Below are positions 5,783-40,293 of a stretch of 64,000 nt of DNA, piece after piece (positions within the stretch are counted from its first letter, which is position 1; the number at the start of each line of letters is the position of its first letter). Location of the stretch: NCBI RefSeq assembly GCF_009914755.1, contig NC_060936.1; one strand, given 5' to 3'. This stretch comes from the human T2T-CHM13v2.0 reference genome, Homo sapiens. A model generated the notes under the pieces. The model had not been told where the DNA came from. It worked only from the letters and a program-made list of their open reading frames with translations, and ran no database searches. The position numbers and the translations under genes are program-made.

Positions 5783-5951
5783 ATGCTCTCTGTAGCGAGT
5801 CATTCTGGAACACTCCTGGTTCTCGCTATGGCCATAAGAAGTGACTTTCATGAGACCTTCAGAAGAATAGCCCGGCTCTTTTACTGGTTCCCCAAATCAC
5901 TGACCTGCTCAAAGAATCGGAAATCCAAGCTGCTCTGGAGCCAAGGTGGGG
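5783..5951 (+). CDS. RASSF3: Candidate distal first coding exon of a long RASSF3 isoform (MLSVASHSGTLLVLAMAIRSDFHETFRRIARLFYWFPKSLTCSKNRKSKLLWSQGG)
   Basis: Repeat-free open frame; in-frame ATGs at 5783 and 5828 (strong Kozak GCTATGG); consensus donor G|GTAAGT at 5952; ends in phase 1, joining in frame to exon 40169. Confidence 0.6.
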
Positions 5952-6854
5952 GTAAGTTACCTCAGGCTAATGCCTTATTTCAAATCCGTTTTTTTTTGTG
6001 TGTGTGTTACATTTTAAAATGGAGCCTCCCTCGCATGGGCAGGGAGGAGTGGGAAAGAAAAGTCTTGAAGCCTTTAAAAGGTATTCCGCTTGGTCATCTG
6101 GAGGGAAAATTGAGAGAAAATAAAATTAAGCATTTTGAGGCTGATGTATTAGAAGCCATGAACATTGTTACAATCCAATTGTATGCTTTTTAGGCATTTT
6201 GATTCCGAAAAGTTGACTAAAGAGAGATGGAGAATGTTTAGTATTTAAAAACAACAAAAACAGCTCTTATTCTCAGGGACTCTTAACTTGTCTTAGTACT
6301 AAAACATCTTAGAATAAACAGAACACAAAAAATAAGTCACAGTGAGTTCCCCTCCTTTCCATAGAAAACTAAAAAGGTCAGTGGGCCTTAAATCTCTTTT
6401 ATTTGGGTCAGTTTATGCATCATATTTTAGGTATTTATTGATGTGAGAATTTAAAGCACCTTATATTTGCTACCATATAAAGCCCTGCCTTTTCTGTCCA
6501 GTCCTGCCTGACTGGAATATGCAAGGGTCAGAGGAGAGGGGGTTAAAGGGAGTAGATGACCCCTCCAAGTCTGGTATCTGAAGTTCCTGCAGGAGCCCAG
6601 CTTTCACCTTCATACTCTGCAGCACTGGTTGTACTACTCACACTACTGTAAGCCAATTCTCTCACTTCATAATGTTTCATCTTGCAACTGAATCAAAATT
6701 CTCATTATGTTTCTTTCACACCCATGTAGCTCAGAATTTTATGTAAGTGCTTAACAATTACTTAAGATGTATTATGTGTTTGATACATTATCAAACATAA
6801 TCTGATGATGTGCTAGATTATCCAGTGCCAGATCCTCCTTTAAAAACAAGTGAC

Positions 6855-7157
6855 GACTGGGCACCGTGGCTCACACCTGTAATCTCAGCACTTTGGGAGG
6901 CCGAGGCAGATGCATTACCTGAGGTGAGGAGTTCGAGACCAGCCTGGCCAACATGGTGAAAACCTGTCTGTACTAAAAATACAAAAAAATTAGCCGGGCA
7001 TGGTGGCTGGTGCCTGTAATCCCAGCTACTCAGGAGACTGAGGCAAGAGAATCACTTGAACCTGGGAGGCGAAGGTTGCAGTGAGCCAAGATCATGCCAC
7101 CGTACTCCAGCCTGGGCAACAAGAGCTAAACTTCGTCTCAAAAAAAAAACAAAAAAC
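6855..7157 (+). mobile_element. AluS
   Basis: Dimeric Alu. Confidence 0.95.
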
Positions 7158-7223
7158 AGAAGTGACTATGATCTATAATCACCAAGGCAGGTATATGATT
7201 AAGACATTTATTTAAAAGCATGC

Positions 7224-7538
7224 AGACCGGGCGCGGCGGCTCATGCCTGTAATCCCAGCACTTTGGGAGGCCGAGGCGGGCAGATCACCTGAGGTCGGGA
7301 GTTCAAGACCAGCCTGACCAACATGGAGAAACCCTGTCTCTACTAAAAATACAAAATTAGCTGGGTGTGGTAGCACATGCCTGTAATCCCAGCTACTCGG
7401 GAGGCAGAAGCAGGAGAATTGCTCGAAAACCCAGGAGGTGGAGGTTGCGGTGAGCCGAGATTGTGCGATTGCACTCCAGCCTAGGCAACAAGAGTGAAAC
7501 TCCGTCTCAAAAAACAAAAACAAAAACAAAAACAAAAC
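7224..7538 (+). mobile_element. AluSp-like
   Basis: Dimeric Alu with CATGGAGAAACC, flanked by AAAA(G/C)CATGCA repeats. Confidence 0.9.
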
Positions 7539-7789
7539 CATGCAATTCATTTAAAAAAAAAAGAAATTTATAAAATATAAGGCCTAGGACATTTCAATCT
7601 TCCATTTTTTCTTTAATTTTTTTTCATTCTCACTGTCAAAATAGGGAGAATTTAACTTAATCGTTTAAGTCTCTGTTTATATGTACCATTCTTCAGATAT
7701 GGATTAACATAATTTGGGAAGTTAGAGCCCCAAAAGAACTTAAGAAAAATCATCTTCACCAATTGCTTCATTTTAAAGATAAGCAAAAA

Positions 7790-8084
7790 GGCCAGGGGCG
7801 GTGGCTCATGCTTGTAATCCCAGCACTTTGGGAGGCCAAGGTGGGTGGATCACTTGAGGTCAGGAGTTTGAGACCAGCCTGGCCAACATGGCGAATCCCT
7901 GTCTCTACTAAAAATACAAAAATTAGCCGGGTGTGGTGGTGGGTGCCTATAATCCCAGCTACTTGGGAGGCTGAGCCAGAAGAATCGCTTGAGCCCAGGA
8001 GGTGGAGGTTGCAGTGAGCTAAGATGGAACCACTGCACCCCAGCCTGGGCGACAGAGCAAGACTCAGCCTCAAAAAATAAAAAT
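7790..8084 (+). mobile_element. AluS
   Basis: Dimeric Alu within MIR-like sequence. Confidence 0.95.
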
Positions 8085-8427
8085 AAGATGAGCAAACTGC
8101 CTCCAGAAGGTTAGATACCTTAACCTCCCAAAACTATTACATAGGCAGAACCAGAGCTTTATCCCAGATTATCTAATTCTTGGTCTGCTGCTCTTTTTAT
8201 CACACCACAGAGCAATGGTGAGTAAGTAACAGAATGTGAACATACGAGCCCTCACTGAATATTTTACTTATAGCCTTCATCAGTAGATAATCTATACCTA
8301 GAAAGTTTGATTATCTGTTTTTCCAAAGTAAAGCTTATTAGTTTTCTCATTAGTTTGGAGATTGATAGCCTGATTCCAACAATCTTTTTACTTATACACA
8401 ATATTATGAAAGAAAGATTTTTGTTGA

Positions 8428-8729
8428 GGCCAAGCTCAGTGGCTCATGCTATGATCCCAGAACTTTGCGAGGCCAAGGCGGGCGGATCGCTTGAGGTCAG
8501 GAGTTCAAGACCAGCCTGGCCACCGCGGTGAAACCCCATCTCTACTAAAAATGCAAAAATTAGCCAGGCATGATGGCAACCACCTGTAATCGCAGCTACT
8601 CAGGAGACTGAGGCAGGAGAATTGCTTGAAACTGGGAGGCAGAGGTTGCAGTGAGCTGAGATCGCACCACTACACTGCATGCAGCCTGGGCGACAGAGTG
8701 AAACTCCATCTCAAAAAAAAAAAAAAAAA
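8428..8729 (+). mobile_element. AluS
   Basis: Dimeric Alu. Confidence 0.9.
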
Positions 8730-38081: not shown

Positions 38082-38378
38082 TGCCTGGGTGCGGTGGCTT
38101 ATATCTGTAGTCCCAGCACCTTGGGAGGCCAAGGGGGCGGATCACTTGAGCCCAGGAGTTCAAGACCAGCCTAGGCAACATGGTGAAACCCCATCTCTAC
38201 AAAAAATACAAAAATTAGGCAAGCATGGTAGTATATGCCTGTAGTCACAGCTACTTCAGAGGCTGAGGTGGGAGGACTGCTTAAACCCAGATGGTTGAGG
38301 CTGCAGCAAGCTGTGATTGCCCACTGCACTCCACCCTGGGCAATAGAGTGAGACCTTGTCTCAAAAGAAAAAAAAAAT
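38082..38378 (+). mobile_element. AluJb-like
   Basis: Dimeric Alu. Confidence 0.92.
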
Positions 38379-38530
38379 TTCTCATACCATTAAATATTAT
38401 TATTCTCCAACATTATTTACTGATCACAATATTCTATCATACAGATAGACCAATAATAAACTTATTATTAAATCAGTTAATATACTTTATTATTAAATCT
38501 GTTAATATAGTCTATCTGTATGATAGAATA

Positions 38531-38788
38531 TTGTGGACATGTGGGTTTCAGGCAGTCCCATCACTCATAGCCCATAGAATGGTCTTTTTATCTCGATGGC
38601 TTACATACGTATCTTCAGAGAACTGAGTTCAGATTCATTCATTGCCATTGCTTCTCTCCTTACTGCCTGTTTTATCTGAAGCTTAACCCTGTGTTATAAT
38701 TTTAGAAACAATGAGATAGTTGGCAGGCTAATGGCTTCATTTTAAGTAGTATCTGATGTGAAGTTTACAACTGAAGCCAATTGGAGTT
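38531..38788 (+). repeat. Composite local duplicate of 40311-40500 plus 43846-43913
   Basis: Manual alignment; about 22 differences in 190 nt for the first part. Confidence 0.9.
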
Positions 38789-38954
38789 CTTTCTTAAGAC
38801 GGCTCCTTAAAAATTTCATTATGTTAGACCTGTCTTCAGTGGGTTACATTACCAGACTCTTGATGAGAGAAATCTATTTGCTGGTGAATAAAATTGTGGC
38901 AGCTCTTATTTATGTGTCTTAATGTGGCTAAGGTAAATGTTTTAAAAATACTTA

Positions 38955-39250
38955 CTTTGGAAACAGTTTGATAGTTCCTCAAAAAGTTAAACTTAGAATT
39001 ACTATATGACCCAGCAATCCTACTCCAAGGTATATATCCAAGAAAATGGAAAACATTATGTACACAGGAAAACTTGTCCATGAATGTTTGGCTATTATTT
39101 ATAACAGCCAAAGAGGGGAAACAGCCTAAATGGCCATCAACAGATAAAAGAATAAACAAAATGTGTTACATTCATATAAAGGAATATTATTCAGCTGTAA
39201 AAAGAAATGAAGAACTGATATATGCTACAACATGTATGAATTTTGAATAT
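38955..39250 (+). mobile_element. L1M 3' fragment
   Basis: TATGACCCAGCAATCCTACTCCAAGGTATATATCCAAGA...GGAATATTATTCAGC. Confidence 0.85.
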
Positions 39251-39260
39251 TTGATAGGTG

Positions 39261-39874
39261 AGGCTGTGCTGGTGTTTTATGCCTGTAATCTCAACACTTT
39301 GGGAGGCCAAGTCAGGAGGATCGCTTGAGCCTAGGAGGTCAAGACTGCAGTAAGCTATGATTGCATCACTGCGTTTGGTGACAGGGTCTCAGTCTGTTGC
39401 CCAGGCTGGAGTGCAGTGGTTGAACAAAGCTCACTGCAGCCTCGACCTTCTGGGCTCAAGCAATCCTCTCAACTCAACCTCCCAAGTAGCTGGGACTACA
39501 GGTGTGTGCCACCACACCTGGCAAATTTTTGTATTTTTTTTGTAGAGATAGGGTCTTGCCATGTTGCCCAGGCTGGAATTTTTTTTTTTTCTAAGTAAGG
39601 CCAGTGTGGTGGCTCATGCCTGTAATCCTAGCACTTTGGGATTACACTTGGGAACCTCCACCTCCCAGGTTCAAGGGATTCTCCTGCCTCAGCCTCCCAA
39701 GTAGCTGGGACTATAGGCACCCACCACCACATCTGGCTGATTTTTGTATTTTTAACAGAGATGGGGTTTCGCCATGTTGCCCAGGCTGGTCTTGAACTCC
39801 TGGGCTCAATAGATCCGCCCGCCCTGCCCTCCCAAAGTGCTGGGATTACAGGCATGAGCCACAGCGCCCGGCCA
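39261..39874. mobile_element. Rearranged Alu cluster (+/-/+/- fragments)
   Basis: Fragments about 39261-39372 (+), 39375-39577 (-), 39599-39640 (+), 39654-39874 (-). Confidence 0.85.
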
Positions 39875-40168
39875 ATGTTGTCTTAATTTAAACCTTGCAA
39901 AAAGAAAAAAAATGTATCGTAGCCTAATCTCCTGTCTTTGTGAAAGATATTCAGTGATAGTGTGATTGAATTTCAGAGGAGGCCAAGATAGTCTAGGTTA
40001 AATGGCTCTGCCTTGTGAACAGATGGGCCCCACACAAACTCATTTTTATTATTCCAGGTTGAATGCTGGCTTTTTGAGCAGGGGAGGGGGTTCAATTTCC
40101 CTTGGCCTGTTGGATGAACAGAGAACGACACAGACCTAACTGGGAACCTAACGTGCTTTCTCTTTCAG

Positions 40169-40293
40169 AGGGTAAATATATATGTCATGCTCACTGCCGA
40201 GACCTGGTACATCTGGATTATCCACAAAATGGGAACGTATCAAGCTGCATGCCGACTTCTGAAGTAAGATATTCAATCAAAAAGAACAGTCAG
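40169..40293 (+). CDS. RASSF3: RASSF3 upstream exon encoding a degenerate second half of a C1 zinc finger ((E)GKYICHAHCRDLVHLDYPQNGNVSSCMPTSEVRYSIKKNSQ)
   Basis: CCTAAC branch points (40135, 40147), pyrimidine tract and AG acceptor (40167-68), donor CAG|GTAGGC (40294), 125 nt open. Peptide aligns with RASSF1A CKFTCHYRCRALVCLDC and RASSF5 CKFTCHPECRSLIQLDC. Confidence 0.75.

What the first reader, a model, noticed from the sequence alone, without database searches (positions are those of the whole stretch)
5783..40293. Hidden upstream exon system of RASSF3: remnant of a RASSF1A/NORE1A-like long isoform
Seen: two ATG-bearing exons (5783-5951, 31856-31922) end in strong GT donors in phase 1. Both join in frame (G+AG = Glu) to a 125-nt exon (40169-40293) that ends in phase 0 and encodes half a C1 domain. 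Established: RASSF1 and RASSF5 each make a C1-containing long isoform from a distal promoter and a short isoform from an internal one; canonical human RASSF3 is described as lacking C1 and lies downstream of TBK1 on the same strand. Inference: RASSF3 had the same two-promoter design, and humans keep open-frame, spliceable remnants that could give N-terminally extended RASSF3 (98 or 64 residues replacing the canonical first exon). These exons may already appear in minor GENCODE transcripts, but I know of no description of them as a decayed C1 isoform.
Basis: partly seen in the sequence, partly recalled or inferred. Interest (0 to 1): 0.85.

Follow-up and report, generated by a model that had tools for sequence, protein, structure and literature searches.

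The report
RASSF3 long isoform with vestigial C1
Two of the three claimed exons are real, already annotated upstream exons of RASSF3 that give a long protein form conserved from birds to mammals, carrying a zinc-less leftover of half a C1 domain; the third exon is what chance gives.

Summary
The sequence facts hold: ATGs, GT donors, phase 1 ends and in-frame joins are all as stated.

The exons are not hidden. Exons 5586-5951 and 40169-40293 belong to two RefSeq Gnomon models. Spliced from ATG 5783, they give the first 134 residues of a 299-aa human RASSF3 protein already in NCBI/UniRef.

Exon 40169-40293 is the counterpart of RASSF5 exon 2 and RASSF1 exon 2-alpha-beta, which encode the second half of the C1 domain. 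The intron position and phases match, and similarity beats 5000 of 5000 shuffles. In one ibis gene model the same exon completes a Pfam-significant C1 domain with a GC-rich RASSF5A-like first exon.

All 10 placental sequences carry Gly and Tyr at two of this exon's four zinc-ligand positions. All 6 bird sequences keep Cys.

The first exon is not a decayed C1 half. It is a separate alternative first exon, conserved between birds and mammals, whose conserved start is ATG 5828.

No relic of the C1-type first exon was found in the window. Exon 31856-31922 is one of 8 equally good chance candidates in the intron.

The parts
5586..5951 (+). Distal alternative first exon of RASSF3 (RefSeq Gnomon models). 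In-frame ATGs lie at 5675, 5756, 5783 and 5828. The exon ends in phase 1.
   Evidence: Annotation; sequence and translation; ATG list and contexts. Splice products equal the N-termini of P0001 and P0002.
5828..5951 (+). Conserved coding core of the first exon (starts MAIRSDF). The likely true start codon is here, with G at -3 and G at +4. The peptide is basic and hydrophobic and is not C1-like.
   Evidence: M16 of P0002 is an invariant column. All 5 bird long isoforms start here. Residues shared with human: 33-38 of 41 in the 7 non-primate placentals (38 and 40 in the 2 primates) and 24-26 of 41 in birds. Bird peptides find this place in the window at E 1e-13 to 2e-14. No similarity to C1-type first exons.
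5952..5957 (+). Donor site GTAAGT of the first exon.
   Evidence: Donor score 5.27 bits on a recalled matrix with a maximum of about 8.6.
40169..40293 (+). Exon 2 of the long isoform, 125 nt, phase 1 to 0. It is the ortholog of the exon that encodes the second half of the C1 domain in RASSF5, RASSF1 and bird RASSF3. In placentals two of its four zinc-ligand positions are Gly and Tyr.
   Evidence: structure; homology; ligand positions: 10 of 10 placentals Gly/Tyr, 6 of 6 birds Cys/Cys.
31856..31922 (+). The claimed second ATG-bearing exon. It is an open 22-codon frame with a GTAGGT donor, at chance level, with no annotation on this strand.
   Evidence: one of 8 such candidates among 29 donors of equal or better score. 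It lies inside antisense lncRNA exon 31536-32241 (given annotation).
736..5585 (+). Interval between the TBK1 end and the distal exon. By analogy with RASSF5, a C1-type (1-alpha) first exon with a CpG island would be expected here. None is detectable.
   Evidence: tblastn with ibis, RASSF5 and RASSF1 1-alpha peptides gave best window hits of E 0.18-2.0, and the WCDLC-like hit at 972-1016 lies in a masked repeat. No CpG island lies upstream of exon 2.
4738..6097 (-). Last exon of antisense lncRNA LOC105369803. It fully overlaps the distal RASSF3 exon (context only).
   Evidence: Given annotation.

Best explanation
What it is. RASSF3 has a distal promoter 4.85 kb downstream of TBK1. Its first exon (5586-5951) splices to exon 40169-40293. 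That exon then splices, over the canonical first exon, to the shared exon at chr12:64663702. The product is a 284-aa protein if translation starts at the conserved ATG 5828, or 299 aa from ATG 5783, instead of the canonical 238 aa.

What is shown. The exon structure, the open frame and the identity of the product to database proteins are shown. So are conservation in placentals and birds, and the RA and SARAH domains downstream. Exon 2 is the ortholog of the exon that encodes the second half of the C1 zinc finger in RASSF1A and RASSF5A.

Evolution. In birds exon 2 keeps all four of its zinc ligands, and in one ibis model it completes a real C1 domain with a GC-rich RASSF5A-like first exon. In placentals that first exon is undetectable. 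Two of the four ligands of exon 2 are replaced in every sequence seen, so no C1 zinc finger can form. The human first exon is a different, old alternative first exon. In design it compares to RASSF1 exon 1-beta, which also joins exon 2-alpha-beta.

What is inferred. The long isoform is translated and functional. Its conserved basic and hydrophobic N-terminus plus the zinc-less half-C1 would act as a targeting or regulatory segment in front of the RA and SARAH domains, which would still bind MST1/2.
For: - Annotation: two Gnomon mRNAs use both exons.
- Product: the splice from 5783 equals the first 134 aa of the human 299-aa P0002, and the splice from 5675 equals the first 170 aa of P0001.
- Relatives: 13 of 13 scored candidates and 13 of 14 are RASSF3 long forms from primates, carnivores, a whale, a peccary and a bat, plus duck. 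One search added 4 more bird clusters; the five bird clusters stand for 33, 35, 99, 7 and 14 member sequences.
- Exon 2 homology: same phases and same split codon in all three paralogs. SW scores are 66 and 49, with 0 of 5000 shuffles reaching them. The RASSF5 exon 2 is the third-best hit of the 41-aa peptide in the whole genome. The ibis protein's best hit in the human genome is this exon (E 9e-4). A profile hits NORE1 C1 structures at E 0.019 and 0.029.
- Ibis P0020: Pfam C1_1 at 32.7 bits against a cut-off of 26.5. It hits NORE1 C1 structures at E 2e-15 and 2e-12, and its first exon matches RASSF5 exon 1 at E 2.9e-18.
- Ligands: 10 of 10 placentals have Gly/Tyr and 6 of 6 birds have Cys/Cys.
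- Downstream domains: P0002 carries RA (E 8e-16) and SARAH (E 5e-17).
Against: - No expression, ribosome or peptide data could be consulted, so transcription level and translation in human are not shown. The RefSeq models are predictions (XM_).
- The C1-type first exon of RASSF3 rests on a single fragmentary ibis gene model with one member sequence.
- No rodent, marsupial, reptile, amphibian or fish sequence was retrieved. The search uses shared words and named sources only, and 17, 23 and 1 candidates of unnamed source were left out.
- The exon-2 peptide alone gets no Pfam or PDB C1 hit, and P0002 gets no C1_1 hit at E<=10.
- The structure prediction gave no usable model (mean pLDDT 36), so nothing is known about the fold of the N-terminus.
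- No dN/dS test could be run, because no DNA of other vertebrates was available.
Confidence: 0.8

Rival explanations
1. One reading: the exons are neutral, decaying leftovers of a lost C1-containing isoform. They happen still to be open and spliceable but have no function.
For: Two of the four zinc ligands of exon 2 are lost in all 10 placentals. No C1-type first exon is detectable. There is no Pfam C1 hit. The RefSeq models are predictions only.
Against: The first-exon core is 33-38 of 41 identical between human and non-primate placentals and 24-26 of 41 between human and birds. The start Met is conserved and the frame is intact in 15 of 15 long isoforms aligned. Neutral sequence would not stay alignable between birds and mammals (established knowledge, not computed here). 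The first 17 residues of exon 2 are nearly invariant in placentals even after the ligand losses.
Confidence: 0.1
2. The first exon 5783-5951 is itself the decayed descendant of the C1-type first exon (1-alpha), so exon 1 plus exon 2 form one decayed but complete C1 domain.
For: It joins exon 2 in the same phase as 1-alpha does in RASSF5 and RASSF1. It lies next to the upstream kinase gene, as RASSF5 exon 1 does.
Against: There is no similarity to 1-alpha tails: in 15 of 15 comparisons, 97 to 1482 of 2000 shuffles reached the score, while the three controls among true 1-alpha exons gave 0 of 2000. In birds the same exon type and a true 1-alpha are both joined to the same exon 2. It is not GC-rich and has no CpG island.
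Confidence: 0.04
3. The transcripts exist, but the conserved sequence works at the DNA or RNA level, for example as TBK1 3' flank regulation or through the antisense lncRNA. The protein isoform is not made.
For: Antisense lncRNA exon 4738-6097 covers the whole first exon. The first exon lies only 4.85 kb after TBK1. No protein-level data were available.
Against: Conservation follows the reading frame, with a conserved ATG in a good context (G at -3, G at +4) and no stops or frameshifts from birds to human. Exon 2, 34 kb away, is conserved in the same frame.
Confidence: 0.06

Closest known systems
RASSF5A (NORE1A) and RASSF1A long isoforms
   Same: A distal promoter lies upstream of the short-isoform promoter. 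The second exon has 3n+2 bases, is entered in phase 1 one codon before the fifth zinc ligand, and ends in phase 0. The exon-2 peptides are homologous. RA and SARAH domains follow. The gene sits next to a TBK1/IKBKE-type kinase gene. PMC2586335 (passages read) describes the A and C isoform design of RASSF1 and NORE1.
   Different: The human RASSF3 long form has no C1-type first exon and no Pfam C1 match. Two of the four ligands in exon 2 are replaced. Its first exon is unrelated in sequence.
RASSF1B (exon 1-beta joined to exon 2-alpha-beta)
   Same: An alternative first exon, other than 1-alpha, is joined to the exon that carries only the second half of C1 (PMC2586335, passage read).
   Different: According to that review, RASSF1B encodes only the RA and SARAH domains. 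Here the alternative first exon is itself coding and conserved from birds to mammals. No sequence similarity was found between it and the RASSF1 locus.
Canonical RASSF3A (238 aa, NM_178169.4)
   Same: Same gene and same four downstream exons. The products differ only in what precedes the exon at chr12:64663702.
   Different: The canonical first exon lies 104 kb downstream of the distal exon, outside the window. It is of the RASSF1C/NORE1B type (PMC2586335). Reviews state that only RASSF1A and Nore1 among the C-RASSF proteins have a C1 domain (PMC4695899, passage read).
Bird RASSF3 with complete C1 (ibis model P0020)
   Same: Same exon 2: its best hit in the whole human genome is window exon 40169-40293.
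   Different: It keeps all zinc ligands and has a GC-rich RASSF5A-like first exon. It is a single fragment model that ends after exon 2.

Membership tests
C1 domain (Pfam PF00130 C1_1) | Match to the family profile at or above the curated cut-off | tested here: not met
   Human exon-2 peptide and first-exon peptide: 0 families at E<=10. Human P0002, felid P0005 and duck P0014: no C1_1 at E<=10. Ibis P0020 passes with 32.7 bits against 26.5.
C1 domain (Pfam PF00130 C1_1) | Eight zinc ligands (two His, six Cys) in the canonical spacing (motif recalled, not from a call) | tested here: not met
   Of the four ligand positions in exon 2, human keeps His and one Cys and has Gly and Tyr at the other two. 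This holds in 10 of 10 placentals; meerkat also lacks the His. The first half with the other four ligands is absent.
C1 domain (Pfam PF00130 C1_1) | Descent from a C1-coding exon (homology to the second half of the RASSF1/5 C1) | tested here: met
   SW 66 and 49 with 0 of 5000 shuffles. Profile hit to 1rfh_A at E 0.019 and 2fnf_X at E 0.029, on the last 22 residues of the domain. Same intron position and phases.
RASSF1A/NORE1A-type long isoform | Distal promoter and first exon upstream of the short-isoform first exon, both joining the same downstream exons | tested here: met
   Transcript table. The order of exons matches RASSF5.
RASSF1A/NORE1A-type long isoform | GC-rich first exon encoding the Pro/Arg-rich N-terminus and the first half of C1 | tested here: not met
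   No match in the window or at the locus. There is no CpG island upstream of exon 2. The feature is present in ibis P0020.
RASSF1A/NORE1A-type long isoform | RA and SARAH domains downstream | tested here: met
   P0002: RA E 7.8e-16 and Nore1-SARAH E 5e-17. PDB: 3ddc_B E 1.8e-37 and 4oh8_B E 2.6e-16.
RASSF1A/NORE1A-type long isoform | Expressed and translated in tissues | not testable with these tools
RASSF1B-type isoform (alternative first exon plus second-half-C1 exon) | A first exon other than 1-alpha spliced to the exon-2 homolog | tested here: met
   The definition is taken from a passage of PMC2586335.

The most novel reading that the evidence does not exclude
The ancestor of RASSF3 and RASSF5 already had three alternative first exons: a C1-type 1-alpha, a basic 'MAIRSDF-type' exon, and the short-isoform exon. 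Placentals lost 1-alpha of RASSF3. They kept the second type together with a zinc-less half-C1, as a functional module under selection that replaces the lipid- or RA-binding role of C1. RASSF5 would still hold a cryptic counterpart in its first intron at chr1:205782571-205782727: an ATG, 52 codons, then phase 1 ending in G before GTAGGT.
Probability: 0.3. Interest if true: 0.55.

Novelty: new member of a known kind. Interest (0 to 1): 0.4.

Why it matters
Reviews treat RASSF3 as the member of the RASSF1/3/5 group that has only a short, C1-less form (PMC2586335 and PMC4695899, passages read). The locus in fact keeps the full three-part layout of its paralogs. Its long form has been conserved since before birds and mammals split, and birds appear to keep a true C1 domain in RASSF3.

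This gives a natural experiment on what a C1 domain does in RASSF proteins. The same exon is under selection with its zinc ligands in birds and without two of them in placentals.

It also means that work on RASSF3 based only on the 238-aa form may miss an isoform with a different N-terminus and a promoter 104 kb away, next to TBK1. This applies to antibodies, knock-downs and promoter methylation studies.

The existence of the exons is not new. They are already in RefSeq models and UniRef.

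Tried and rejected
- Pfam and PDB with single exon peptides found nothing for C1. Homology only showed up in direct comparison, in profile searches and through the bird sequences.
- The 92-aa first-exon peptide against the whole genome gave only itself plus 7 weak hits (E 0.3-7.8). None of the 7 lies in RASSF1 or RASSF5.
- A search for a relic of the C1-type first exon in the window found nothing. 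Queries were the ibis, RASSF5 and RASSF1 peptides, and the ibis protein against the whole genome.
- The only CpG-rich stretch in the window (41300-42600) looked at first like a candidate lost promoter. It is a block of tandem repeats downstream of exon 2 and was rejected.
- AlphaFold2 of P0002 with 15 aligned sequences gave mean pLDDT 36 and pTM 0.23. The model is unusable, so no fold search was run.
- Atlas search: the ibis C1 part gave C1_1 clusters at scores 0.90-0.92. The human N-terminus scored only 0.76, which is lead level.
- Literature: five answered searches found no paper on a long RASSF3 isoform, a C1 relic in RASSF3, or the TBK1-RASSF3 / IKBKE-RASSF5 parallel. I read passages of PMC2586335, PMC4695899, PMC7915224 and the bioRxiv preprint 10.1101/2020.02.05.923433, not whole texts. 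Supplements were not consulted, subscription journals are not covered, and the original RASSF3 cloning paper (Oncogene 2002) was seen only as a reference entry.
- The lead in RASSF5 intron 1 stayed below significance. tblastn gave E 0.11-0.33 in 49 kb. The profile HMM gave E 0.34, rank 2 of 5764 fragments. Shuffles reached the score 4-41 times of 5000. In the control, 3 of 31 hit places also have an ATG and a phase-1 donor. A genome-wide search with it finds only itself, and Pfam gives nothing relevant.

Rows dropped before the ligand count:
- P0001: same human exons as P0002.
- P0003: lacks exon 2.
- P0012: a 103-aa fragment from the same bat as P0013.
- P0019: a pigeon model with an insertion.

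In some searches, P0012 shows Gly/Tyr and P0019 shows Cys/Cys, in line with the counts.

Full report

The window is chr12:64480001-64544000. ATG 5783 is in frame with ATGs at 5675, 5756 and 5828. The frame stays open to G5951, which is followed by GTAAGT, so the exon ends in phase 1.

ATG 31856 opens 22 codons plus one base, ending at G31922 before GTAGGT.

Exon 40169-40293 has an AG acceptor after a pyrimidine tract, is 125 nt long, and is followed by GTAGGC. It is entered in phase 1 and left in phase 0.

Joined in a script to the next RASSF3 exon (chr12:64663702-64663809, taken from L016), all four possible starts give open frames with 0 stops. The sequence facts are therefore right.

THE EXONS ARE NOT HIDDEN

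The transcript table shows that the canonical mRNA NM_178169.4 starts at chr12:64589308, which is outside the window. Two Gnomon models use 5586-5951 or 5813-5951 plus 40169-40293, and then the shared exon at 64663702. They are XM_054371777.1 (CDS from 5675) and XM_054371774.1 (CDS from 5828).

A protein search with the first-exon frame found a 187-aa human 'isoform X4' (P0001) and a 299-aa human 'Ras association domain family member 3' (P0002) present in NCBI, UniRef and nr. All 13 scored candidates were hits; 17 candidates of unnamed source were left out.

The splice from 5783 is letter for letter the first 134 residues of P0002. The splice from 5675 is the first 170 residues of P0001.

EXON 2 IS THE SECOND HALF OF A C1 DOMAIN BY DESCENT

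On its own, the 41-aa peptide gets no Pfam family and no C1 structure at E<=10. The evidence comes from other comparisons.

- In a six-frame search of the whole genome, its third-best hit after itself (E 8.4, 36% identity) lies in RASSF5. That hit translates to the second half of the RASSF5 C1 domain.
- RASSF5 exon 2 is 122 nt and RASSF1 exon 2-alpha-beta is 107 nt. Like the 125-nt RASSF3 exon, both have 3n+2 bases.
- All three are entered in phase 1, with the split codon directly before the fifth zinc ligand, and all three end in phase 0. The RASSF5 and RASSF3 exons both end ...SQ before GTAGG.
- Direct comparison gives Smith-Waterman scores of 66 (RASSF5) and 49 (RASSF1), reached by 0 of 5000 shuffles each.
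- A profile of 15 long RASSF3 isoforms hits the RASSF5 RA and SARAH structures and also the solved NORE1 C1 domain, over its last 22 residues (1rfh_A E 0.019, 2fnf_X E 0.029).

THE GENE LAYOUT MATCHES RASSF5

IKBKE ends 10.7 kb before RASSF5. Its paralog TBK1 ends 4.85 kb before the distal RASSF3 exon.

The canonical RASSF3 first-exon peptide hits RASSF5 at chr1:205821773-205821856 (E 1e-4, 68% identity). This is 19 kb downstream of RASSF5 exon 2, where the short RASSF5 isoform would start. The review PMC2586335 (passages read) states that the RASSF3A N-terminus resembles RASSF1C and NORE1B, not RASSF1A or NORE1A.

The order 'distal exon, half-C1 exon, short-isoform exon, shared exons' is therefore common to both genes.

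BIRDS

Searches with the human and duck N-termini found five bird clusters of 294-295 aa named RASSF3 isoform X1, X2 or X4. They stand for 33, 35, 99, 7 and 14 member sequences. All five start at the residue that corresponds to human ATG 5828.

One further hit is P0020, an uncharacterised 290-aa fragment model from an ibis with a single member sequence.

- Its last 45 residues are bird RASSF3 exon 2. Its best hit in the whole human genome is window exon 2 (E 9e-4; E 2.3e-7 within the window).
- Before exon 2 it has a Pro/Ala/Arg-rich sequence ending in the first half of a C1 domain.
- It passes Pfam C1_1 with 32.7 bits against a cut-off of 26.5.
- It hits the NORE1 C1 structures at E 2e-15 and 2e-12.
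- Its first part matches human RASSF5 exon 1 at E 2.9e-18 and RASSF1 exon 1-alpha at E 3e-4.

So at least one bird genome encodes, at the RASSF3 locus, a complete RASSF5A-like C1 domain that uses the same exon 2.

LIGAND STATE

Exon 2 carries four of the eight zinc ligands (motif recalled).

- All 6 bird sequences keep Cys, His, Cys, Cys.
- All 10 placental sequences have Gly at the first position and Tyr at the last. Meerkat also lacks the His (the dropped rows are listed in Tried and rejected).

The human long form therefore cannot build a C1 zinc finger, and it gets no C1_1 match at E<=10.

No relic of a C1-type first exon was found in the window. The best E-values were 0.18 to 2.0, and one motif-like hit lies in a masked repeat. 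There is no CpG island upstream of exon 2.

THE FIRST EXON IS SOMETHING ELSE, AND IT IS CONSERVED

The peptide from 5828 to 5951 shows no similarity to the C1-type first exons of ibis RASSF3, RASSF5 or RASSF1. In 15 of 15 comparisons, 97 to 1482 of 2000 shuffles reached the observed score. The three controls among true C1-type exons gave 0 of 2000.

The peptide is nevertheless well conserved.

- Human shares 33-38 of 41 residues with non-primate placentals and 24-26 of 41 with birds. For exon 2 the figures are 26-32 of 42 and 17-19 of 42.
- Bird peptides find 5828-5947 in the window at E 1e-13 to 2e-14.
- The Met at 5828 is an invariant alignment column. It has G at -3 and G at +4, whereas 5783 has T at -3 and C at +4.
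- The 15 residues between 5783 and 5828 are less conserved: 9-14 of 15 are shared in the eight placental sequences that cover them. They are absent from the capuchin model and from all five bird models.

I therefore read the exon as an old alternative first exon whose conserved start is 5828. In design it is comparable to RASSF1 exon 1-beta, which also joins exon 2-alpha-beta (PMC2586335, passage read). It is not a decayed C1 half.

THE SECOND CLAIMED EXON

Exon 31856-31922 is at chance level. With a donor matrix typed from recalled textbook frequencies, 29 GT sites in the 34-kb intron score at least as high as this one (4.06 bits). Of those 29, 8 have an ATG, an open frame and phase 1, and three of the 8 are longer. 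The exon has no + strand annotation and sits inside an exon of the antisense lncRNA.

HOW IT PROBABLY WORKS

Shown: the structure, the open frame, the database proteins, conservation, the RA and SARAH domains, and the homology of exon 2.

Inferred:
- The distal promoter is used in some tissues.
- Translation starts at 5828.
- The basic and hydrophobic N-terminus plus the zinc-less half-C1 form a regulatory or targeting segment.

[quoted passage not shown] Whether the vestigial segment keeps any such contact is unknown. The structure prediction failed (mean pLDDT 36).

WHAT WEAKENS THIS

- No expression or protein data could be consulted.
- The RefSeq models are predictions.
- The bird C1-type exon rests on one fragment model.
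- No rodent, marsupial, reptile, amphibian or fish sequences were retrieved.
- No DNA of other vertebrates was available for dN/dS.

NOVELTY

The exons and the 299-aa protein are in public databases. Five answered literature searches found no paper that describes a long RASSF3 isoform, a C1 relic in RASSF3 or a bird RASSF3 with C1. Reviews say that only RASSF1A and Nore1 among the C-RASSF proteins have a C1 domain (PMC4695899 and PMC7915224, passages read).

I file this as a new member of a known kind: the RASSF3 counterpart of the long RASSF isoforms, in a zinc-less form. Interest is moderate.

Noticed in passing
L018:472-628 (chr1:205782571-205782727, + strand, RASSF5 intron 1): An ATG-started frame of 52 codons plus one base (G) before GTAGGT, between RASSF5 exon 1 and exon 2. 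It would join RASSF5 exon 2 in frame. It has a weak resemblance to the conserved RASSF3 first exon: tblastn E 0.11-0.33 in 49 kb, profile E 0.34 at rank 2 of 5764 fragments, and 4-41 of 5000 shuffles reaching the score. In the control, 3 of 31 hit places also show an ATG plus a phase-1 donor. A genome-wide search finds only itself. It may be a counterpart of the RASSF3 distal exon, but this is not established.
   Followed up: partly
window 41199-42900: The only CpG-rich stretch of the window (GC up to 0.82) lies 1 kb downstream of exon 2 and is made of repeats. It starts with an Alu-like piece, then a 22-bp unit repeated 17.4 times (41584-41966, 99% matches), then C-rich runs (42141-42359), then 41-bp units with CCAAT motifs (42567-42694). 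It looks like a composite retroelement, not a promoter. It is only partly masked in the given annotation.
   Followed up: partly
The two transcription units would overlap head to tail.
   Followed up: no
window 5641-5658 and 5675-5827: Transcripts starting at 5586 carry a short out-of-frame upstream ORF (ATG 5641, 5 codons) and three in-frame ATGs (5675, 5756, 5783) before the conserved ATG 5828. The choice of start codon may depend on which of the two annotated start sites (5586 or 5813) is used.
   Followed up: partly
proteins P0003, P0019, P0001: Model oddities. The snub-nosed monkey protein P0003 (257 aa) lacks exon 2 yet stays in frame. The pigeon protein P0019 (162 aa) has extra sequence between the first exon and exon 2. 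The human P0001 (187 aa) skips a downstream exon and loses RA and SARAH.
   Followed up: no
search results: No rodent, marsupial, afrotherian, reptile, amphibian or fish protein with this N-terminus was returned. Given the word-based search and the exclusion of unnamed sources, this may be a limit of the tool rather than a real absence.
   Followed up: no
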